Shown: piece after piece, positions 48,386 to 64,000 of the stretch
How the letters are laid out: each line of letters starts with the position of its first letter
Position numbering within the stretch: the first letter of the stretch is position 1
Virus record (IMG/VR): IMGVR_UViG_3300025383_000009
DNA: 64,000 nt
DNA from: a virus
Taxonomy: Duplodnaviria > Caudoviricetes
Strand: one strand, 5' to 3'
The notes under the pieces: model-generated
Told to the model about the DNA's origin: nothing
The model's input: only the letters and a program-made list of their open reading frames with translations
Database searches by the model: none
Translations under genes and position numbers: made by a program

Positions 48386-48841
48386 TTACTCCTCATTGAT
48401 TACAAATACTGCAACACCAGCTTCAGCAAACATTGCTATGGACTTTTTCCATGAATCGTTCCAATGTGGCCTAGCTTCGATGCACTGTTTTGATACTACT
48501 ACTTTCTTAATCCCTACTTGGATGATACCCTTTGCACACTCTGAGCATGCTGGTAAACCATGAATGAATATGGTTGAACCGTCTAATGATACGCCTGAGT
48601 ATGTAGCATTATATATTGCATTCATCTCAGCATGTACAATTAATGATAGCTTTAGTTCTCTATCACTTAATCTTTTATTTGAATCAGCTATACCTCTTGG
48701 AAAACCATTATAGCCTTGAGATAAGATCTGACCCTTTGATCCAACTACCACTGCACCAACTTGTGTGTTAGGGTCTTTTGACCATGTAGCTACTTCTTTT
48801 GCAAGCTTGAGGTATCGCTTATACCATTTATTGATCGCCAT
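48386..48841 (-). CDS. cd: dCMP deaminase
   Basis: SKDP-TQVGAV, GYNGFPRG, HAEMNA, PACSEC. Confidence 0.92.
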   Translation of the reverse strand: MAINKWYKRYLKLAKEVATWSKDPNTQVGAVVVGSKGQILSQGYNGFPRGIADSNKRLSDRELKLSLIVHAEMNAIYNATYSGVSLDGSTIFIHGLPACSECAKGIIQVGIKKVVVSKQCIEARPHWNDSWKKSIAMFAEAGVAVFVINEE

Positions 48842-49511
48842 CGATGAACTTAAAATGCCTTTCATAAACATGAAGAGATGCTACGTTCCAATAGATATCA
48901 CCAATTTCAAGTGTTTCTAACCATTCGTTTCTTAAGTCTATTACTAGCTGTTCCAATACATGTTTTTGCCATGCATAATCGTTCTTATAACCAAACACGG
49001 CATCATTTGATCTCATATAGACCAATGCGTTTACTTTATTGTTCCTGATAAGATACTGCACTGCATTAGTACACATAAAGTCTGACATACCACCTTTGTT
49101 ATAATCATCATGCATAGTAGGACGATTATAGATCATTGTAGCTCTACGAGATAGTGGGTTCTTTATGAGTTCATTAAGTACGTTCTCATATTGATCTCCA
49201 TTCTGTTGCGAATAGATGCACCACCCATAGTTTGAGTTGATATATCCATTAGGGTTTGCAACCATTTTCCAGATTTCTGGTGGTCCACCTGGGATGTCAT
49301 TAACGTTAAGTGACATTGACTTATACCATTCTAATTCTCTTTCTACATAGTCATGATTGACTGTACCAAAGATTGATGGTTCATTAGCAAAGAATGCTGC
49401 GTTTATGATCTCAACTGTCTTGACACCAGTCTTATCAGTAACGAAGTCGCCCATCTTTAACTTCTCTTTAAAGATGTTTCTGATATTACTTACACCATAG
49501 ACTGTACTCAT
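48828..49511 (-). CDS. 42: Thymidylate-synthase-family dCMP hydroxymethylase (T4 gp42-like)
   Basis: DFMCTNAVQYLIR, MRSNDAVFGYKNDYAWQ, WNVASLHVYERHF closely match T4 gp42 as recalled; Asp at the specificity position. Confidence 0.8.
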   Translation of the reverse strand: MSTVYGVSNIRNIFKEKLKMGDFVTDKTGVKTVEIINAAFFANEPSIFGTVNHDYVERELEWYKSMSLNVNDIPGGPPEIWKMVANPNGYINSNYGWCIYSQQNGDQYENVLNELIKNPLSRRATMIYNRPTMHDDYNKGGMSDFMCTNAVQYLIRNNKVNALVYMRSNDAVFGYKNDYAWQKHVLEQLVIDLRNEWLETLEIGDIYWNVASLHVYERHFKFIDGDQ

Positions 49512-49904: not shown

Positions 49905-50312
49905 TTATTTTTTAACCCAACCTCTACCATTCCAATCATAGATCCCATTCAATTCATAGTCATCTGATTCTTTGTCATTGATCCATATATAGACACGAGT
50001 AGGATGCGTCCTCCATGACTCTTGTATACGTTCTGCACACCTATCTAATATGTATGGTACATTGCCTATATGTTGTGTAACTTTAACCTCAATAGGCGTA
50101 TCATCGGGTTCAAATAGATCTTTATATGGTCTAGTATCATCGATGTATCCTATCGATAGTAGGTATACCTCTGCTGCTTGACCGTATAAGCATGCTTCAA
50201 GGATCTGTTGGTAGTTTCTACCAGTCTTGTCTTTAACAACTATCTTACTAGCCTCTGCCTCAGCTCGAGCTAATAATAATTGCTGGTCTAGTTTTGATCT
50301 ATTAAATTTCAA
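49905..50312 (-). CDS. Hypothetical protein, possible small PD-(D/E)xK fold
   Basis: GQAAE...YKDL...IEVK. Confidence 0.45.
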   Translation of the reverse strand: MKFNRSKLDQQLLLARAEAEASKIVVKDKTGRNYQQILEACLYGQAAEVYLLSIGYIDDTRPYKDLFEPDDTPIEVKVTQHIGNVPYILDRCAERIQESWRTHPTRVYIWINDKESDDYELNGIYDWNGRGWVKK

Positions 50313-50710
50313 TCGTAGATCTTTTCAAATAATCCGATGTTACCAACATGAGTAGGTGCAACCCAGCCTTCAGGCTTAATAAGATCCGGTAAACCTAGTG
50401 GGTTTGGTCTTGATGCTTTAATACCGACCTCCTTAGTAATATTTGCTGTATACACTTTATCCCATGCCATATTAGCATGTACATCAAATAAATCCAATGT
50501 GCCTATAGCAAACACAGATAAGTCGATCAATGCATCCACCGCATCATCACCGTTCTTTGCTGCTTTAAGTTCATCAAGTTCTTCTTGTAAACACTTGATG
50601 CGGAACTCAAGGAACTCTGCTAACTTATTAGCATCCATCTTTTGCACTACTTCTTTTACACCAAACTTATGGTGCATCTCACTCATATCTTTTGCCCAGT
50701 TGTAACTCAT
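50309..50710 (-). CDS. MazG-like NTP pyrophosphohydrolase
   Basis: LQEELDEL, VDALIDL, AWDKV--AN, IKPEGW. Confidence 0.8.
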   Translation of the reverse strand: MSYNWAKDMSEMHHKFGVKEVVQKMDANKLAEFLEFRIKCLQEELDELKAAKNGDDAVDALIDLSVFAIGTLDLFDVHANMAWDKVYTANITKEVGIKASRPNPLGLPDLIKPEGWVAPTHVGNIGLFEKIYD

Positions 50711-56453: not shown

Positions 56454-56583
56454 TATTATTTATCTTTTTTACGTGTTTAAAAATCTTAAGCTGCCAAGCA
56501 AATCTGCGTGGCTCTACATCAGGGTGTGCTAGTCGTTCTCCATAGAATTCATAGAGTTGACTCCATAATTCTTCTAATCCCAT
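56431..56583 (-). CDS. Hypothetical protein
   Basis: MGLEELW...LAHPDVEPRRF. Confidence 0.6.
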   Translation of the reverse strand: MGLEELWSQLYEFYGERLAHPDVEPRRFAWQLKIFKHVKKINNNGQNPTQ

Positions 56584-57206
56584 AATGCGGTATAGTATTT
56601 TCCAAAAAGGTTTAATCCATTTTGAATACGAGCCCAATGTTTATCATGAGCCTTCTTATCGAACTTCAATGTGTGCTTAGGACCCTTTTTTATTTCAACG
56701 TTACCGTTAGGTAATTTAACCCATTTTTGATCTACTTTACCTGTCCAGAATGGTGCAGCCCAATCTTCTTTACTTAACTCTGTAAATGACCATATCATCT
56801 GATCCATCACATAGTCCCAGCGTTTAAAATAATTCTTGTCCGTCTCACCATTCTTTGATTGTACTTTACGTTTATCTCTTAAGTTTGTAGGAACATCTTT
56901 GTTATCAACATGTGGTGCACCATGCTTGTCCTTCTTAAGTTGCTTAAGCATAGGCAAGATAATAGGTGTAAGAGTGCTATCCATCGACCATGTATCCCAT
57001 TTGTCTATTTTAATATACTGAATATCTCGTTCAAAGATACGTCTAATATCAAATAAGACTGAGCAGAACCAACCAAGTTTTGTGTACTTGATTATGTTTT
57101 CAACTAATGGTTCGTCATAGTCAATCTCACGCCAAAAGATTACCTTCTCAACAATTTCATATGGAGAGATCCAACTATCTTTTGGTTTATTCATATAAAT
57201 TTTCAT
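56574..57206 (-). CDS. Hypothetical protein
   Basis: IDKWDTWSMDSTL, LKKDKHGAP, GLNLFGKYY-LWD. Confidence 0.7.
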   Translation of the reverse strand: MKIYMNKPKDSWISPYEIVEKVIFWREIDYDEPLVENIIKYTKLGWFCSVLFDIRRIFERDIQYIKIDKWDTWSMDSTLTPIILPMLKQLKKDKHGAPHVDNKDVPTNLRDKRKVQSKNGETDKNYFKRWDYVMDQMIWSFTELSKEDWAAPFWTGKVDQKWVKLPNGNVEIKKGPKHTLKFDKKAHDKHWARIQNGLNLFGKYYTALWD

Positions 57207-57967: not shown

Positions 57968-58738
57968 TTATACCTCCACATATTTTAATTTAAAAGAACC
58001 GTGCTGATTTTCTCGTGGATATCCACGAGGGTTACACACAACACGGGTTATTCCAATTGTATAATCAAACTCATCATGTGTATGACCATGTACCCATAGT
58101 TTAATATTATCGCTAAGCTCCATCATGTAATCAAGCTTATTATGAAATGCGCCATTCATAAGAGTTTCATGCTTATACTTAGGATGACAACTATTTTCAG
58201 ATGGACTATGATGCGTTATCACTACACAATCTTTAGAGTTGCTCAATGCGTGTTTAATATACTCGAGACTCTTTTTGTTTTCTTTTGTGGATTGCTCAGG
58301 TGTATACTTATAATAGTTTACACCATCAAAGTACTTGACAATCCTAAAATCAGGCATTGAAAATAAAGCAGCGTTCATCGTCATAGGATCTTCATTATTC
58401 ATGTCTGTCCATAGAGTAGAGCCAATAAATGTCTTGTCTTCTAACTCAAACGTTTCATTATCTAATACATGGATGTTCTCCCATGTTGATAATGTTTCCT
58501 TTAGATCGTTTACTGTATCATTAAACATATAGTTATAATGCTCATGGTTACCCACCACATACAGCACATGTTTAAACTGCTCAGAGCAATTCTTAAAAAA
58601 ATCTAAGTATTGATATTTTTGAAGATGCTTAACTACGCATATATCACCTGCAAGGATAAGCACATCAGCGTTCTCAGTATTATTTAATGTAATAGCTTCA
58701 AACTCCAAGTGTAGATCTGATGCGATTGCTAGTTTCAT
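57968..58738 (-). CDS. Calcineurin-like metallophosphoesterase
   Basis: SDLHLE, AGD, VGNHE, THH, VHGHTH, NPRGY. Confidence 0.92.
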   Translation of the reverse strand: MKLAIASDLHLEFEAITLNNTENADVLILAGDICVVKHLQKYQYLDFFKNCSEQFKHVLYVVGNHEHYNYMFNDTVNDLKETLSTWENIHVLDNETFELEDKTFIGSTLWTDMNNEDPMTMNAALFSMPDFRIVKYFDGVNYYKYTPEQSTKENKKSLEYIKHALSNSKDCVVITHHSPSENSCHPKYKHETLMNGAFHNKLDYMMELSDNIKLWVHGHTHDEFDYTIGITRVVCNPRGYPRENQHGSFKLKYVEV

Positions 58739-59684: not shown

Positions 59685-59743
59685 ATTATACCAAATTAGC
59701 TAATTAATGTACATAATTAAATATGTATATAAATCAATAACTT
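59685..59743 (-). promoter_or_regulatory. Early promoter with upstream AAGTTATTGAT element
   Basis: TGTACA-N17-TATAAT (59713-59685); AAGTTATTGAT at 59733-59743. Confidence 0.75.
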
Positions 59744-60797
59744 ATGAAAAGAATGATTCTAGGCCTCCGGGGGCGGACTTGGGTGTGTTCCAATACGAAC
59801 CAGTCCAATATGGGTATGATGCCCGTGATAGATGGACTGACTTTGGCTTCTCCATGTATTCGAAGTCAAGCTCACCCTTAGAGTTAATCATGTTGTCTAC
59901 CCATAAGTATACCGGGAACTTGTCTTGAGACATGATCTCTTCTTTGAATATCTGACGAAGGTTGTCACGTTCCTTCTGTGTTCCGGTAAATGGTACACCT
60001 TTATAGTAACCAGTCTTTGGTAATACTCGTGACTCGTTCTCAATAGGTAATAGTTCCCACATAGTCACCTCCGCATCATACATATCTGAGATACGTTGAC
60101 ACTCTTGGATATACTTTGCTGCGAGTTCTTTAGTTGACTGAACCGGATCCGGAAACCTCATGAGATGGTGGCGGATATCGATGTTACCAAAGTAAACTTC
60201 TATTTCGTTATATTTTCCTTCTGGTATGAATGTGTCAAAGCCTTGCTTGATTGCACCATGTAGTGTCTTAAATGGTGTAGACACGTTCATCCATTCTGGT
60301 CGATACATACAAATAGCATGAGAATCCCCAATAGCAATCTTTGGATATCTCTTAGCAAGGTTAGGATCATAAGTGATAGCACGATCTTGTAGATCTTTGA
60401 GGTTGCCCCAATTTACATCATGCCATAAACGATTTATCTTCTTACCATCTTTGATTGCTTTCTCTACACGCGGATACAACATACCATAGTAATCAGGCAT
60501 ATCGATCACTAATGACCATACTGCACCTCTAAAGTTTGATAGCGCGATGATGTACTCGATGTTCGAATAGTTCTCCAACCCACCGAATAAGTTGAGTGAT
60601 CCACCCCAGTCGTTACCATGATAGAGAGCAACCGTATCATATGCATTGTAATCATGTATCTGGTTACCTGTCATGTGTACAGTTACATCCATACCTGCAG
60701 TCATTAGTTGATCTGCATAGATGATACCTTGCGCAGCTTTGTGTGAATGGATCTTGTTAGAAACCGGCGAGAGTGGCTGTGTTAGTAGTAACTTCAT
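59742..60797 (-). CDS. Putative fusion: beta-glucosyltransferase-like N-domain + SGNH/GDSL-like C-domain
   Basis: N-terminal YD-V...LNLFGG...LVID resembles T4 BGT (DYDRLIV...INFFGG...LFTD); C-terminal IAIGDSHA, YFGNIDIRHH. Confidence 0.5.
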   Translation of the reverse strand: MKLLLTQPLSPVSNKIHSHKAAQGIIYADQLMTAGMDVTVHMTGNQIHDYNAYDTVALYHGNDWGGSLNLFGGLENYSNIEYIIALSNFRGAVWSLVIDMPDYYGMLYPRVEKAIKDGKKINRLWHDVNWGNLKDLQDRAITYDPNLAKRYPKIAIGDSHAICMYRPEWMNVSTPFKTLHGAIKQGFDTFIPEGKYNEIEVYFGNIDIRHHLMRFPDPVQSTKELAAKYIQECQRISDMYDAEVTMWELLPIENESRVLPKTGYYKGVPFTGTQKERDNLRQIFKEEIMSQDKFPVYLWVDNMINSKGELDFEYMEKPKSVHLSRASYPYWTGSYWNTPKSAPGGLESFFS

Positions 60798-61656
60798 CTT
60801 TTTTCCATTTTCTATATGAATTTGTTGTGTCAATAATACTATGATCTTTTAATATTGGGTCTGTGCCAACGTTCCACATCAATATATCTCTACCCGTATT
60901 TTTAGGTATGTACTTCCAAACCTTTGCATCGTATGTACGTACTGTTGGGAATGGTGGTAAGTTCTCGTATTTTTCTGGTGTTGCAAACTCTGCAGGTTCT
61001 GATATAAACTCTGCGCGACCTAACTCACCTTCTTGTAAGTTACGGGCTACTGCAACTGAATGGAACTTGGCATTTGGCCATGCTATCTGTAATGCTCGTG
61101 ATAGTACACCAGTACTTATAGCTACATAAACTTCTTCAGGTTCTTTGATCTTACTTGCAGCGTATACGATACCTGCTGTTGCTAGTTCATGCTTCAAACC
61201 AAGTGGGATGAATGCATAACCGTTTTCTTCCGCGTATTTTTTAGCAGCGAGGTTTAGGTTAGGCATCGCTGCTATCCGTTCAAAGTGTACCTCTGCTCCA
61301 CGTTCAATACAACATGCCTGATGATGTGATATCTGCTTGGATGATGGCATGAATAGTACAATCTTTTTACCATGTATCTTTGCTACATCACATAGAGACA
61401 CACCAGCAAGCCCGACTCTTGGCTGTACATAAACTAATGTATCGTTTGGGATCTTGGCTGCAAGCAGATCACCAGCTCTTGTCTTTGTACCAACGATGAG
61501 ATCATCTCGAACAACTCGTACACCTTCATGCATCACTGTAACAGGATCCGGATTGTACGGTGTCCATCCTTCACATAGAGATAGGTAATACTCTTTGGCT
61601 TGTGGCCATGTCATCATACCTACTTCTTTGTTTATACCCTCAACGAACGTTCTCAT
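60757..61656 (-). CDS. PLP-dependent (fold type II, PALP) enzyme
   Basis: VRDDL-GTK (Schiff-base Lys), VAISTGVL, YDAKVW, LMWNV. Confidence 0.75.
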   Translation of the reverse strand: MRTFVEGINKEVGMMTWPQAKEYYLSLCEGWTPYNPDPVTVMHEGVRVVRDDLIVGTKTRAGDLLAAKIPNDTLVYVQPRVGLAGVSLCDVAKIHGKKIVLFMPSSKQISHHQACCIERGAEVHFERIAAMPNLNLAAKKYAEENGYAFIPLGLKHELATAGIVYAASKIKEPEEVYVAISTGVLSRALQIAWPNAKFHSVAVARNLQEGELGRAEFISEPAEFATPEKYENLPPFPTVRTYDAKVWKYIPKNTGRDILMWNVGTDPILKDHSIIDTTNSYRKWKKDEVTTNTATLAGF

Positions 61657-61763
61657 ACTTTCCTCAATTTACAATTATCAAAATGCCATCTTTTCATAGC
61701 AGGTAAACTACCATTTAAACCACAATGGGGGCATACTATGGTTTGTTGAGCTCCTGTAGGCAT
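61653..61763 (-). pseudogene. 36-aa CPHC...RWHFDNC zinc-finger mini-ORF (homing endonuclease C-terminal remnant)
   Basis: MPTGAQQTIVCPHCGLNGSLPAMKRWHFDNCKLRKV, ATGA-coupled to the PLP gene. Confidence 0.55.
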
Positions 61764-61767
61764 CCAT

Positions 61768-62784
61768 TCATGCTGGGAAGACTTTTTTTCCGTCTGGTCG
61801 TTTGGCCAAATCAAAACTATTAGGAAATATCCAATTATATGGTATACGCTTGGTAGGAGATTTTACTCCATGATTGATAGCAATGTGTTTCCAAAATAGA
61901 CATGACTTGTCTTCTATGTTCAACCATTTTTGCTCTCTCATAGGATTGCGAGGATCATTTACTAATATATTCATTTGCTCAAGCCACATGTGTGCATGCT
62001 TGTTCTTAGGTACGAACTGACCATCTGGATCTATCTCATATTGTACCTTACCATTGAGGTTTACACCAAAGATCTGATGCATGCCATCAAAGTGTCCTGT
62101 ACCACCAAACAATACTGACTCAGGATCTACGATATCAGGATATGCCATAGCCATGTATCGTGCAGTGTTCTTGCATGGATACAGTGGACTTCTAAAGTTT
62201 TGTTTCTCTTTGAAATACTTCTCAAGTAGTTTAGCATACTCCATCATGGTGAATGGTCGTCCTAACCTATTACGATGTTTATCTAAAAACTCCCACATCT
62301 CCTCAGCTGCCTTCTTAGGACCATCGATCAGCCAATCTTTAACTAACGTGTTCTTAGGATAGTAGATTTGGAATAGATCATTACGTGCATGTCGGTGTTC
62401 TTTAAAGTGTTCTCTTAGATTCTCTGGACCTTGATACATCAACCGTGTTAGTGTACCCCAATGTTCGTTACTAAATGAGAACGTTAGTGTATACCACAAT
62501 CTTAACTTAGGATCTGTGACCTTCTTCATGATATCACAGAACGGATGTTCATGCCAATGGAGTCTATGCGAAAAGATCTGGTAATCTTCTGCTAACAACT
62601 GATCTCGACGTAGATCAAACTCTTGGCAAAACTCAAAAAACTTATCAAGACGTTTTTCAAGTGGCCAATCTTTCATCCATGATTCAGTAGGTTTGCCATC
62701 TTTTAATACTACAGGACTTGTACCCTTATAGGTAATATTCTTATACTCGATACCAGATATGAATTGAGCTAGAGTGTTTTGCAT
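61768..62784 (-). CDS. Amino acid/amine:DNA transferase-like protein (aGPT-Pplase1-like), paralog B
   Basis: D-LL---Y-F-HR, LTFSFSN, AMAYPDIVDPES-LFGGTG, NIEDKSCLFWKH. Confidence 0.55.
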   Translation of the reverse strand: MQNTLAQFISGIEYKNITYKGTSPVVLKDGKPTESWMKDWPLEKRLDKFFEFCQEFDLRRDQLLAEDYQIFSHRLHWHEHPFCDIMKKVTDPKLRLWYTLTFSFSNEHWGTLTRLMYQGPENLREHFKEHRHARNDLFQIYYPKNTLVKDWLIDGPKKAAEEMWEFLDKHRNRLGRPFTMMEYAKLLEKYFKEKQNFRSPLYPCKNTARYMAMAYPDIVDPESVLFGGTGHFDGMHQIFGVNLNGKVQYEIDPDGQFVPKNKHAHMWLEQMNILVNDPRNPMREQKWLNIEDKSCLFWKHIAINHGVKSPTKRIPYNWIFPNSFDLAKRPDGKKVFPA

Positions 62785-63935
62785 AGTTCCTTATATTGAT
62801 CCACTGTCATATTATGTATCTTCAAGACATAATCGTCTGAAGGATGAGATGTTAATCTATTGAATGAATCTATTAGTTTAAGATCAAGCATTGCTTTCTG
62901 TCTACCGAATGGATGATCTAAGATCTTACATGATGAGAATATAACATCACGATCTATATGGTTATAGTCTGATCCAGGTCGTACATAGTTTTCTACCCAA
63001 CGGATGAAGTCACAGCACACGTCTTCTGCATTATATGGGTATGCACCAGTCTCTACATAGATCCGTTCCATAACTTGATCGAGGAACTCTTCTTGCTTCA
63101 TCTTAGTTAATGGTTTTGCAAGATATGAGATACACTCTACTGCATTTGTACCGTAGTAGAACGGTGATGTCTTATCAACGTACTGTGGGTACCAATCAGC
63201 CACGTCTGCAACTACTGCAGCATACTGGAAGTGGTACTGTCTTAAGTTATTCTTAACGTTCCAATCTAACATGAACGAACCGATCTCTCTTAGTGATCTC
63301 TGTCCACCAGATTCTAAAAACTCTGCTAGTTCTCTTGCTAATCGTGGTGCATACTCTGATAGGTAATAATCTCCACCACGTTTATATCTTGATCCTGCAG
63401 GTGGTTTAGGAAATGCTGGGAATTGGTATCCAACAGAAGTGTAGAAGGAGTATGGATAGTTGTTCACCATCTCGACCATGTCCTCAATAGTCTTACAGTT
63501 ATGTAGCGAGAACAATAAGGTATTGTGGTATCCACTAGGTTTCGTACTGTAATTAATTGCAGAACCACATACACGATGGAGGATGAATATGTACAGCCAT
63601 TCGGGCAGTTTAAAGTCGGAATGTTTTCCTGTCCAGTTATGTGCTACAGTATCTCGTTGATGTGTGATCTTACCTGCTTCCATCTTTTTCCAATATGGAT
63701 GCTGATCCGTCCAACCATAAAAGCAATCATTAACGATCTGAGAGAAACCTGCATACTTACGTTCGACCACATCATACAATTCTACATGATGCAGTAGATC
63801 ATCATTCATGTTTGACTCTACATGTGATATCATGCCATAAGGTGGTGTAAGAGATACATTACACTTCTCTTGCTGATCCTTTGCAAGGTTAAAGTATCTT
63901 ATGTACTCATCATAGTATTGTGTTGTTTCAATCAA
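62769..63935 (-). CDS. Amino acid/amine:DNA transferase-like protein (aGPT-Pplase1-like), paralog A
   Basis: DDLL---ELYDVVER, LHRVCGS, VADVADWYPQYVD-S-FYYGTNA, NAEDVCCDFIRW; TTG start overlapping the upstream TGA. Confidence 0.6.
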   Translation of the reverse strand: MIETTQYYDEYIRYFNLAKDQQEKCNVSLTPPYGMISHVESNMNDDLLHHVELYDVVERKYAGFSQIVNDCFYGWTDQHPYWKKMEAGKITHQRDTVAHNWTGKHSDFKLPEWLYIFILHRVCGSAINYSTKPSGYHNTLLFSLHNCKTIEDMVEMVNNYPYSFYTSVGYQFPAFPKPPAGSRYKRGGDYYLSEYAPRLARELAEFLESGGQRSLREIGSFMLDWNVKNNLRQYHFQYAAVVADVADWYPQYVDKTSPFYYGTNAVECISYLAKPLTKMKQEEFLDQVMERIYVETGAYPYNAEDVCCDFIRWVENYVRPGSDYNHIDRDVIFSSCKILDHPFGRQKAMLDLKLIDSFNRLTSHPSDDYVLKIHNMTVDQYKELCKTL

Positions 63936-64000
63936 TATAAACCAACCTCAGTTAAAAATGTTTGTAGTCTAAGCAGCATACCAACTTCATAGGCTTTACT
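63932..64000 (-). CDS. C-terminal fragment of an upstream gene (SKAYEVGMLLRLQTFLTEVGLY*)
   Basis: Open frame to the window end; stop overlaps the next start (TTGA). Confidence 0.55.
   Translation of the reverse strand, partial: SKAYEVGMLLRLQTFLTEVGLY

What the first reader, a model, noticed from the sequence alone, without database searches (positions are those of the whole stretch)
59742..64000. Candidate novel cytosine hypermodification pathway using thymine-type transferases
Seen: coupled cluster of two divergent aGPT-Pplase1-like paralogs, a PALP PLP enzyme and a BGT-like/SGNH protein, truncated upstream by the window edge. Known: characterised members (M6, PaMx11, ViI, phiW-14) act on kinase-activated 5hmU, adding amino acids or amines that PLP enzymes then decarboxylate. 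Inference: the only TS-family gene in view is dCMP-type, so this phage may build amino-acid- or amine-derived, possibly acylated or glycosylated, adducts on 5hmC, with two paralogs for two donors or sequence contexts. No 5hm-base kinase is visible in the window.
Basis: partly seen in the sequence, partly recalled or inferred. Interest (0 to 1): 0.85.

Follow-up and report, generated by a model that had tools for sequence, protein, structure and literature searches.

The report
Predicted hydroxymethylcytosine hypermodification gene cassette
An uncultured freshwater T4-like phage carries a tightly linked gene set, related to the enzymes that decorate thymine in other phages but here tied to the enzyme that makes 5-hydroxymethylcytosine and lacking the usual DNA kinase, so its DNA probably carries an undescribed cytosine modification.

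Summary
The cluster is real. Four co-directional, mostly overlapping minus-strand genes lie at 59742-63935, and a fifth, UDG-like gene runs over the window edge.

- **The two helical proteins.** No Pfam model hits them. P0003 folds like the solved amino-acid:DNA transferase PUGT (Z 9.1-9.4). P0004 is its distant homologue. Both families keep the catalytic Glu...Cys pair, as E-D-x-x-C where thymine-type enzymes have E-T-x-x-C.
- **P0002** is homologous to the DNA-acting PLP decarboxylase M6 gp52 (hhalign 98%).
- **P0001** has a clear SGNH domain and a weakly T4-BGT-like N-domain.
- **Linkage.** P0001 and P0004 always travel together and are fused in seven metagenomic proteins. In 27 related loci a gp42-type gene lies 0.4-2.7 kb upstream.
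- **The target base.** The window's only thymidylate-synthase-family enzyme is of the T4 5hmdCMP-synthase type, not the dUMP or 5-hydroxy-C type. Relatives carry ThyX and no 5-hmU DNA kinase.

The "two paralogs for two donors" part is not supported: P0003 is accessory.

The scan has flagged this module before on other DNA, including one follow-up with the same verdict. I rate it a new variant of a known kind.

The parts
63932..64000 (-). 3' end of a 137-aa UDG-superfamily-like gene. The rest lies beyond the window end and was read from L002:9591-10004. It overlaps the P0004 start by 4 nt.
   Evidence: Flank recovered, translation. PF03167 scores E 0.0013, 19.3 bits, below the cut-off of 24.3, but covers profile positions 3-130 of 141. 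It has GQCPS and HPSPRN motifs at the positions I recall, from memory, for UDG motifs A and B. It is present upstream of P0004 only in the closer relatives.
62769..63935 (-). P0004, 388 aa. Helical protein of the AADT / 5-hmU-kinase-helical-domain superfamily, and the constant partner of the SGNH protein.
   Evidence: No Pfam hit. ESM neighbours carry PF18723/PF18724, score 0.97. hhalign against the P0003 family gives 86%, E 4.8e-6, over 130 columns that include the VDPxS and E-D-x-x-C motifs. E304 and C308 are invariant in 63 diverse relatives. There are 928 relatives in 90% clusters. It forms the C-terminal half of seven fusion proteins whose N-terminal half is P0001-like. Its structure was not predicted.
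61768..62784 (-). P0003, 338 aa. Second, accessory AADT-like protein.
   Evidence: AF2 pLDDT 85. Against PUGT 8z2n/8z2m: VIA Z 9.4 and 9.1 with 225 residues aligned, the only Z>=8 among 48,161 chains; the next hits are HhH DNA glycosylases. A BFVD protein annotated 'Amino acid:DNA transferase domain-containing' matches at 50% identity, E 8e-30. Atlas clusters carrying PF18723/PF18724 match at TM 0.68-0.86. E291-D-K-S-C295 is invariant in 33 relatives. It is absent from many related loci.
60757..61656 (-). P0002, 299 aa. Fold-type-II (PALP) PLP enzyme, homologous to the DNA-acting decarboxylase M6 gp52.
   Evidence: phrog_7093. 6 of 14 family members hit PF00291, best E 4.8e-12. Lys58, in G-T-K-T-R, is invariant. 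hhalign of the family against M6 gp52 (L077:2207-3160) gives 98%, E 2.1e-13, over 225 columns. The function of M6 gp52 is taken from PMC8989533.
59742..60797 (-). P0001, 351 aa counted from Met13 (the ORF is open to 60833). N-terminal Rossmann-like domain weakly similar to the acceptor-side domain of T4 beta-glucosyltransferase, plus a C-terminal SGNH domain.
   Evidence: AF2 pLDDT 91.5. SGNH fold: Foldseek 2hsj E 1.5e-6; VIA Z 13-14 over 166-168 residues; PatB O-acetyltransferase Z 11.9. Invariant GDSH, Gly181, G-N-I-D and His322. BGT likeness: Pfam E 0.046; hhalign E 1.7e-4, probability 50%, residues 26-99 against BGT 24-100; Foldseek 1j39 probability 0.82. Homologues in Aeromonas T4-like phages at 33% identity, E 1e-42.
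48828..49511 (-). gp42-type dCMP hydroxymethylase, 227 aa. The presumed supplier of the 5hmC substrate. It lies 10 kb away here but adjacent to the cassette in many relatives.
   Evidence: PF00303 E 8e-16. The alignment with T4 gp42 shows the DFMC catalytic Cys and, in its M-R-S-N-D...K-N-D-Y-A-W stretch, Asp at the ThyA L143, D169 and N177 positions. These diagnostic residues are taken from PMC13326640.
48386..48871 (-). dCMP deaminase, part of the nucleotide-pool module around gp42.
   Evidence: PF00383 E 2e-21.
50309..50710 (-). MazG-like pyrophosphohydrolase, a candidate dCTP-clearing enzyme of the hmC module.
   Evidence: PF01503 E 8e-6. The same gene precedes gp42 in the minimal relative L058.

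Best explanation
This is a post-replicative hypermodification cassette for 5-hydroxymethylcytosine in the DNA of a freshwater T4-like phage.

Shown: the phage encodes a T4-type dCMP hydroxymethylase, with a MazG-like enzyme and a dCMP deaminase beside it. The cassette encodes two proteins of the amino-acid:DNA-transferase (AADT) / kinase-helical-domain superfamily that keep the catalytic Glu and Cys. It also encodes a homologue of the PLP decarboxylase that acts on amino-acid-nucleobase conjugates in DNA, and a two-domain SGNH protein.

Inferred, step 1: P0004 and P0001 work as one unit. They are always adjacent and are sometimes one polypeptide. I propose they take the place of the missing 5-hmU DNA kinase. 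The helical protein would hold the flipped 5hmC. The SGNH domain would esterify the hydroxymethyl oxygen, or otherwise turn it into a leaving group.

Inferred, step 2: an AADT-type cysteine adds to C6 and the leaving group departs, giving an exocyclic methylene. An amino acid or amine then adds to it. P0003 would do this where it is present, and P0004 itself where it is not.

Inferred, step 3: P0002 decarboxylates the appended amino acid, leaving an aminoalkyl-type adduct on cytosine.

The conserved change from E-T-x-x-C to E-D-x-x-C may be the switch from thymine O4 to cytosine N4 recognition. It would parallel the Asn-to-Asp switch in thymidylate-synthase homologues.
For: - Fold of P0003: PUGT at Z 9.1-9.4, the only chain with Z>=8 in a search of 48,161 chains. 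BFVD and Atlas neighbours are annotated AADT or HMUDK_hel.
- P0004 is homologous to P0003. Glu and Cys are invariant in both families. Both residues are essential in M6 gp51 and ViI gp247 (PMC8989533). They correspond to E243 and C247 at the PUGT active site (PMC11472151).
- The P0002 family matches M6 gp52 at 98%, E 2e-13, with the PLP lysine kept.
- P0001 has the SGNH fold with the Ser/Gly/Asn/His blocks invariant. Its N-domain aligns weakly with the acceptor-side domain of T4 BGT.
- Seven fusion proteins combine a P0001-like half with a P0004-like half.
- Synteny in 56 viral loci: P4 and P1 co-occur wherever the contig reaches far enough, and a gp42-type gene lies 0.4-2.7 kb upstream in 27 loci. 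Sixteen of those were parsed as Asp/Asp/Asp.
- The window's TS homologue is of the T4 5hmdCMP-synthase type.
- Related records, one of them 84% complete, hold a single TS-family gene. Four of five carry ThyX. None holds a PF18723 match or a ViI-kinase-like protein.
- Aeromonas phages 44RR2.8t, 31 and 25 carry a P0001-like domain. They have genes 42 and 56 but no glucosyltransferase (PMC2993671).
Against: - No Pfam AADT or HMUDK_hel model hits P0003 or P0004. Only 1 of 63 P0004 relatives reaches PF18724, at E 1e-3. My local profile comparisons with four known AADTs and four known kinases were not significant.
- The P0004 structure was not predicted.
- A Z of 9 is modest for a helical protein.
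- Every characterised relative acts on hmU derivatives activated by a kinase, and no SGNH enzyme is known to act on DNA.
- The acyl-activation step is pure inference. The donor molecule is unknown.
- In this window gp42 lies 10 kb from the cassette.
- The window's own genome could not be searched, so a kinase or a dUMP hydroxymethylase elsewhere is not excluded.
- There is no expression data; no RNA run holds the stretch.
Confidence: 0.6

Rival explanations
1. The cassette is a conventional thymine-type pathway. 5hmU would arise from the phage dCMP deaminase acting on 5hm-dCMP, or from deamination in DNA, and the AADT-like and PLP enzymes would decorate 5hmU as in M6 and ViI.
For: All characterised AADTs and gp52-type decarboxylases act on hmU derivatives (PMC8989533). 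A dCMP deaminase sits next to gp42.
Against: No dUMP hydroxymethylase and no 5-hmU DNA kinase were found. ThyX supplies ordinary dTMP. The cassette is tightly linked to the Asp-type gp42. The Thr next to the catalytic Glu, which helps bind the metal on thymine O4 in PUGT, is replaced by Asp in 33 of 33 and 58 of 63 family members.
Confidence: 0.1
2. Only the P0001-P0004 pair modifies DNA, and the product is a simple ester or other small O-substituent on 5hmC. The helical proteins would serve as base-flipping or DNA-binding modules rather than as transferases. P0002 and P0003 would be lineage-specific extras with another role.
For: Minimal relatives have only gp42, an Nmad1-like gene, P4 and P1. 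The helical domains of the 5-hmU kinases also keep the Glu...Cys motif. SGNH enzymes include O-acetyltransferases such as PatB.
Against: P0002 is present in most relatives and is clearly homologous to a DNA-acting decarboxylase, which needs an amino-acid adduct as substrate. Glu and Cys are strictly invariant in both helical families.
Confidence: 0.12
3. The genes act on something other than DNA, such as free nucleotides, RNA or a surface glycan, or they serve as DNA glycosylases for repair or against host DNA. The fold is HhH-glycosylase-like and a UDG-like gene is attached.
For: After PUGT, the next structural neighbours of P0003 are HhH DNA glycosylases and a queuine-salvage enzyme, at Z 5-7. 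A UDG-like gene is translationally coupled in this lineage. Most SGNH enzymes act on lipids or glycans.
Against: A PLP decarboxylase homologue and an SGNH domain have no place in base excision. The UDG-like protein has Cys in its GQCPS motif, where I recall from memory that family-1 UDGs carry the catalytic Asp, and it is absent from most relatives. The gp42 linkage and the gp52 homology point to DNA pyrimidines.
Confidence: 0.08

Closest known systems
Thymidine hypermodification pathway of phages M6, ViI, PaMx11 and PhiW-14 (5-hmU DNA kinase, AADT / aGPT-Pplase clade 2, PLP decarboxylase); PMC8989533, and the PUGT structure in PMC11472151
   Same: A helical HhH-glycosylase-like transferase fold with a Glu...Cys pair. 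A gp52-type fold-II PLP enzyme (98% hhalign). Paralogous helical proteins in one cluster. Linkage to a thymidylate-synthase-family hydroxymethylase.
   Different: The hydroxymethylase is the cytosine (Asp) type. There is no P-loop kinase; a BGT-N-like/SGNH protein is the constant, sometimes fused, partner instead. The motif is E-D-x-x-C rather than E-T-x-x-C. The sequences are too divergent for the Pfam models. The host virus is a T4-like phage.
T4 5hmC pathway with alpha/beta-glucosyltransferases
   Same: gp42-type dCMP hydroxymethylase, a pyrophosphohydrolase and dCMP deaminase in a T4-like replication module. The N-domain of P0001 weakly resembles the acceptor-side domain of BGT.
   Different: No glucosyltransferase was identified. 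The UDP-sugar-binding half of BGT is replaced by an SGNH domain. AADT-like and PLP enzymes are added.
RB69/DLP3 5-hydroxycytosine arabinosylation (PMC13326640)
   Same: A T4-like phage with a dCMP-specific TS homologue and no T4-type glucosyltransferase.
   Different: The diagnostic D169N of 5hodCMP synthases is absent here, where Asp is kept. No arabinosyltransferase or NDP-sugar genes were seen in the cassette.
SGNH O-acetyltransferases and esterases (PatB/OatA type, PAF acetylhydrolase)
   Same: The fold and the Ser/Gly/Asn/His blocks of the P0001 C-domain (Z 12-14).
   Different: No known member acts on DNA. P0001 has a unique N-domain and occurs only in phage DNA-modification contexts.

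Membership tests
AADT / aGPT-Pplase (PF18724) and HMUDK_hel (PF18723) | Match to the Pfam model above its cut-off | tested here: not met
   No hit for P0003 or P0004 even at E<=10. No PF18723 hit in five related records. 1 of 63 P0004 relatives hits PF18724 at E 1e-3. The positive controls M6, ViI, PaMx11 and W-14 all hit.
AADT / aGPT-Pplase (PF18724) and HMUDK_hel (PF18723) | PUGT-like two-bundle helical fold | tested here: met
   For P0003 only: Z 9.4 and 9.1 over 225 of 287-289 residues, top of 48,161 chains; Atlas clusters carrying PF18723/PF18724 at TM 0.68-0.86. P0004 was not folded; it is linked to P0003 by hhalign at E 4.8e-6.
AADT / aGPT-Pplase (PF18724) and HMUDK_hel (PF18723) | Conserved catalytic Glu and Cys (E-x-x-x-C) | tested here: met
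   E291/C295 in 33 of 33 and E304/C308 in 63 of 63 sequences. Their role is taken from PMC8989533 and PMC11472151.
AADT / aGPT-Pplase (PF18724) and HMUDK_hel (PF18723) | Thr after the catalytic Glu (E-T-x-x-C), the metal / thymine-O4 site of PUGT | tested here: not met
   Asp in 33 of 33 (P0003 family) and 58 of 63 (P0004 family). Thr in M6, PaMx11, W-14 and ViI.
AADT / aGPT-Pplase (PF18724) and HMUDK_hel (PF18723) | Co-occurrence with a P-loop 5-hmU DNA kinase and a dUMP hydroxymethylase | tested here: not met
   Neither was found in the window flank or in related records. The hydroxymethylase is the Asp type. The window's own full genome was not searchable.
AADT / aGPT-Pplase (PF18724) and HMUDK_hel (PF18723) | Transfer of an amino acid or amine to an activated 5-hydroxymethylpyrimidine in DNA | not testable with these tools
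   Needs enzyme assays or nucleoside mass spectrometry.
M6 gp52 / ViI gp226-type PLP-dependent DNA decarboxylase | Homology to gp52, with the PALP fold and the Schiff-base lysine | tested here: met
   hhalign 98%, E 2.1e-13, 225 columns. PALP hit in 6 of 14 members. Lys58 invariant.
SGNH hydrolase / acyltransferase superfamily | Fold plus the Ser, Gly, Asn and His blocks | tested here: met
   Z 13-14 over 166-168 residues. GDSH, Gly181, G-N-I-D and His322 are invariant in 40 sequences. The acidic triad member is unclear: there is no D-x-x-H, though Glu316 is invariant.
T4 beta-glucosyltransferase (PF09198, GT-B) | Both Rossmann domains, including the UDP-glucose-binding C-domain | tested here: not met
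   Only residues 26-99 align with BGT 24-100 (hhalign E 1.7e-4, probability 50%; Pfam E 0.046). The C-domain is SGNH.
T4 gp42-type dCMP hydroxymethylase | Catalytic Cys; Asp at ThyA N177 (cytosine), D169 (not the 5hoC type) and L143 (hydration) | tested here: met
   Alignment with T4 gp42, 44RR gp42, three dUMP hydroxymethylases and a TS. The criteria are taken from PMC13326640.
Uracil-DNA glycosylase superfamily (upstream 137-aa protein) | Pfam match and a catalytic motif A | tested here: inconclusive
   PF03167 at E 0.0013, below the cut-off but nearly full length. The motif reads GQCPS, with Cys where I recall from memory that family-1 UDGs have the catalytic Asp.

The most novel reading that the evidence does not exclude
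The SGNH/BGT-N-like protein together with the P0004-type helical protein is a kinase-independent activation system. It would O-acylate, or otherwise esterify, 5hmC in duplex DNA, creating a leaving group for AADT-type substitution. That would make it the first SGNH enzyme acting on a DNA base. The end product would be an amino-acid-derived, decarboxylated adduct on cytosine that replaces glucosylation in a large group of aquatic T4-like phages and in the Aeromonas phages 44RR2.8t, 31 and 25.
Probability: 0.2. Interest if true: 0.85.

Novelty: new variant of a known kind. Interest (0 to 1): 0.72.

Why it matters
Phage DNA hypermodifications decide whether restriction enzymes, CRISPR nucleases and sequencing chemistries can read phage DNA. 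They have also supplied useful enzymes. All known amino-acid-type adducts sit on thymine and need a DNA kinase.

This module would extend that chemistry to cytosine with a different activation step. It is abundant: about 900-1,350 clusters at 90% identity for P0004 and P0001, in freshwater metagenomes from many studies.

It also offers a concrete candidate for an old open question: what, if anything, modifies 5hmC in the T4 relatives that have gene 42 but no glucosyltransferase, namely Aeromonas phages 44RR, 31 and 25? Those phages are cultured and can be tested directly.

Tried and rejected
- **Near-identical phage records.** A megablast search of the phage collection found none. The window's own assembly is not held. 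The nearest record, G001, shares only a 98-bp match in this region.
- **Direct sequence searches.** tblastn of P0004 against cultured phages found nothing at 1e-5. PDB sequence searches with the P0003 and P0004 family profiles gave only noise or nothing.
- **Profile comparisons with known enzymes.** Local hhalign of both families against small alignments of known AADTs and kinases was not significant, at E 0.05-0.25. The best local match for P0004 did fall on the E..C motif.
- **The 44RR fusion.** The P0004 family profile does not detect the C-terminal half of Aeromonas 44RR ORF233c. That half has only a sub-threshold PF18723 hit, E 4e-4. The cultured-phage 'fusion' is therefore secure for the P0001-like half only.
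- **Complex prediction.** The run for P0001 with P0004 gave no verdict, score 0.00. It is neither support nor evidence against binding.
- **P0001 N-domain.** The protein-atlas search with the N-domain alone gave no usable hit.
- **Promoters and terminators.** The scan was at chance level.
- **The 53-aa ORF at 61653-61814.** It has a weak zinc-finger hit, but gene calls on identical contigs do not include it and relatives have no room for it, so I dropped it.
- **Literature.** Seven searches found no paper linking AADT-like or SGNH enzymes to 5hmC.

Full report
**What is there.** The window comes from a T4-like phage. gp43 polymerase, UvsX, a gp41-like helicase and an ATP-dependent ligase lie just downstream. 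gp45, gp44, gp62 and RegA lie upstream, on an identical metagenomic contig (L002). Only freshwater metagenomes hold the stretch, and no RNA run does.

The finding covers four minus-strand genes:
- P0004, 62769-63935
- P0003, 61768-62784
- P0002, 60757-61656
- P0001, 59742-60797, counted from Met13

P0004/P0003 overlap by 16 nt and P0002/P0001 by 41 nt. A 111-nt gap separates P0003 from P0002. The flank shows one more coupled gene beyond the window edge. It is a 137-aa protein with a sub-threshold but nearly full-length UDG-superfamily match, and it carries GQCPS and HPSPRN motifs. Upstream of that are small unrelated ORFs and an HSP20 gene.

All four proteins have hundreds of relatives: 928, 392 and 1351 hits for P0004, P0003 and P0001. 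Their strong conservation marks them as real genes.

**The two helical proteins.** Pfam finds nothing in either, even at E<=10. Other evidence nevertheless places them in the aGPT-Pplase / AADT / 5-hmU-kinase-helical-domain superfamily.
- An AlphaFold model of P0003 (pLDDT 85) has the solved glycine:DNA transferase PUGT (PaMx11 gp46) as its best PDB match. This holds both in Foldseek and in a Foldseek-independent scan of 48,161 chains. There PUGT is the only chain with Z>=8 (Z 9.1, 225 residues), followed by HhH DNA glycosylases. The PUGT authors describe the same neighbours for PUGT itself.
- Viral and Atlas models that match best are annotated AADT or HMUDK_hel.
- The P0004 family profile aligns with the P0003 family at E 4.8e-6 over 130 columns.
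- Language-model neighbours of both proteins carry PF18723/PF18724.
- Both families keep, without exception, a Glu and a Cys spaced E-x-x-x-C. These are the residues whose mutation kills M6 gp51 and ViI gp247, and they line the PUGT active site.

One systematic difference stands out. Thymine-type AADTs read E-T-x-x-C, and in PUGT this Thr helps hold the metal bound to thymine O4. The two families here read E-D-x-x-C, in 33 of 33 and 58 of 63 sequences.

P0004 itself was not folded. My local profile comparisons with a handful of known enzymes were not significant. I therefore call both proteins distant superfamily members, not members of the Pfam families.

**The PLP enzyme.** P0002 alone misses Pfam, but 6 of 14 family members hit PALP and Lys58 is invariant. 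The family aligns with M6 gp52 at 98% probability (E 2e-13, 225 columns). M6 gp52 is the enzyme shown to decarboxylate glycine-thymine conjugates in DNA. Relatives of this domain are also found fused to a DNA methylase in Erythrobacter phage R6L, and next to ParB genes in a Microcystis phage.

**The SGNH protein.** The P0001 model (pLDDT 91.5) has a C-terminal SGNH domain. It scores Z 13-14 against PAF acetylhydrolase and carbohydrate esterases, and 11.9 against the O-acetyltransferase PatB. The Ser, Gly, Asn and His blocks are invariant. The N-domain aligns weakly with the first Rossmann domain of T4 beta-glucosyltransferase, sharing an N-[LF]-F-G-G stretch. That is suggestive only. The UDP-sugar-binding half of BGT is absent, so P0001 is not a glucosyltransferase.

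**Comparative genomics.**
- An exhaustive search with P0004 found seven proteins of 640-790 aa. In each, the C-terminal half is P0004-like and the N-terminal half is P0001-like, at E 1e-23 to 1e-46.
- Across 56 viral loci, P4 and P1 co-occur wherever the contig extends far enough. P2 is usually present. P3 is present in about half. The UDG-like gene occurs only in the closer relatives.
- In 27 loci a gp42-type gene lies 0.4-2.7 kb upstream of P4. The minimal arrangement is MazG-like, an unknown gene, gp42, an Nmad1-like gene, P4, P1.

The core is therefore the P4-P1 pair, genetically tied to the cytosine hydroxymethylase. P0003 is an accessory, not an equal partner.

**Which base.** The window's only TS-family protein (48828-49511) aligns closely with T4 gp42. 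It has Asp at the positions equivalent to ThyA L143, D169 and N177. Asp at N177 means dCMP rather than dUMP. Asp retained at D169 separates it from the recently described 5-hydroxy-dCMP synthases of RB69 and DLP3, which carry Asn there.

Five related viral records, one of them 84% complete, each hold a single TS-family gene. Four of the five carry ThyX. None has a PF18723 match or a ViI-kinase-like protein. The same PF18723 search finds the kinases of M6, ViI, PaMx11 and W-14. Thymidine is therefore probably made normally, and 5hmC is the available hydroxymethylpyrimidine.

**Proposed mechanism.** By analogy with the thymine pathway, the hydroxymethyl oxygen must become a leaving group before an AADT-type cysteine can drive substitution through an exocyclic methylene. 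With no kinase present, the constant SGNH partner is the best candidate for that step, for instance by O-acylation. P0004 would hold the flipped base, much as the helical domain is joined to the kinase in 5-HMUDK. P0003, or P0004 where P0003 is absent, would then add an amino acid, and P0002 would decarboxylate it.

Only the homologies and linkages are shown. The order of steps, the donor and the product are inferred. I put 0.6 on 'a 5hmC hypermodification cassette' and about 0.2 on the acyl-activation detail.

**Rivals.**
- A conventional 5hmU pathway, fed by deamination.
- A simple O-substituent made by the P4-P1 pair alone.
- A non-DNA or glycosylase role.

**Comparison and novelty.** The closest known system is the 5-HMUDK/AADT/PLP thymidine pathway. 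This one differs in the base-supplying enzyme, the missing kinase, the SGNH partner and the E-D motif.

Petrov et al. noted that Aeromonas phages 44RR, 31 and 25 have genes 42 and 56 but no glucosyltransferase. These phages carry a 795-aa protein whose first 345 residues are P0001-like. Its C-terminus has only a sub-threshold HMUDK_hel hit. They offer a cultured test case.

Seven literature searches found no description of such a cytosine pathway. Within this scan the same module has been flagged on other genomes. One follow-up, e1-3434925, reached the same verdict, and first-reader notes describe variants with other accessory enzymes. I did not check those notes, apart from applying the 5-hydroxy-C caveat to this window.

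Noticed in passing
L002:2917-3255 (about 7 kb beyond the window end, upstream of gp45): A 112-aa protein with a strong match to PF18909, the dATP/dGTP diphosphohydrolase N-terminal domain (E 1e-35). It points to further nucleotide-pool editing in this phage.
   Followed up: no
L002:7519-7779 and L002:8450-9001: The phage encodes a ribosomal protein S21 homologue (PF01165) and an HSP20 small heat-shock protein between regA and the cassette.
   Followed up: no
L002:1-2120: An AAA_5/CbbQ-type ATPase (408 aa, E 2e-16) follows a 699-aa protein, an arrangement that resembles a MoxR/CobS-type pair.
   Followed up: no
L070:4792-7212 (Erythrobacter phage vB_EliS_R6L gp1) and L071:5992-6702 (Microcystis phage Mae-JY30): The gp52-like PALP domain is fused to an N6/N4 DNA methylase in R6L. 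In Mae-JY30 it stands alone next to two ParB/sulfiredoxin genes, and both are annotated 'DNA modification methylase'. PLP-dependent DNA modification may be wider than the known thymine pathways.
   Followed up: partly
L008:5444-9424 (Aeromonas phage 44RR2.8t ORF234c-ORF233c): The 795-aa protein with the P0001-like N-half sits directly after a sodium:solute symporter gene annotated as similar to sodium/glucose cotransporters.
   Followed up: no
window 61653-61814 (-): A 53-aa ORF bridges the P0003/P0002 gap and has a weak zf_C2H2_6 hit (E 6e-4, below the cut-off). It is not called on identical contigs and is absent in relatives, so it is probably spurious. The 111-nt gap itself is unexplained.
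   Followed up: partly
window 57968-58738 (-) and 56574-57206 (-): A calcineurin-like metallophosphoesterase (phrog_1649) and a 210-aa protein of unknown function (phrog_11543) lie between the cassette and the ligase. They are conserved in the same order on related contigs.
   Followed up: no
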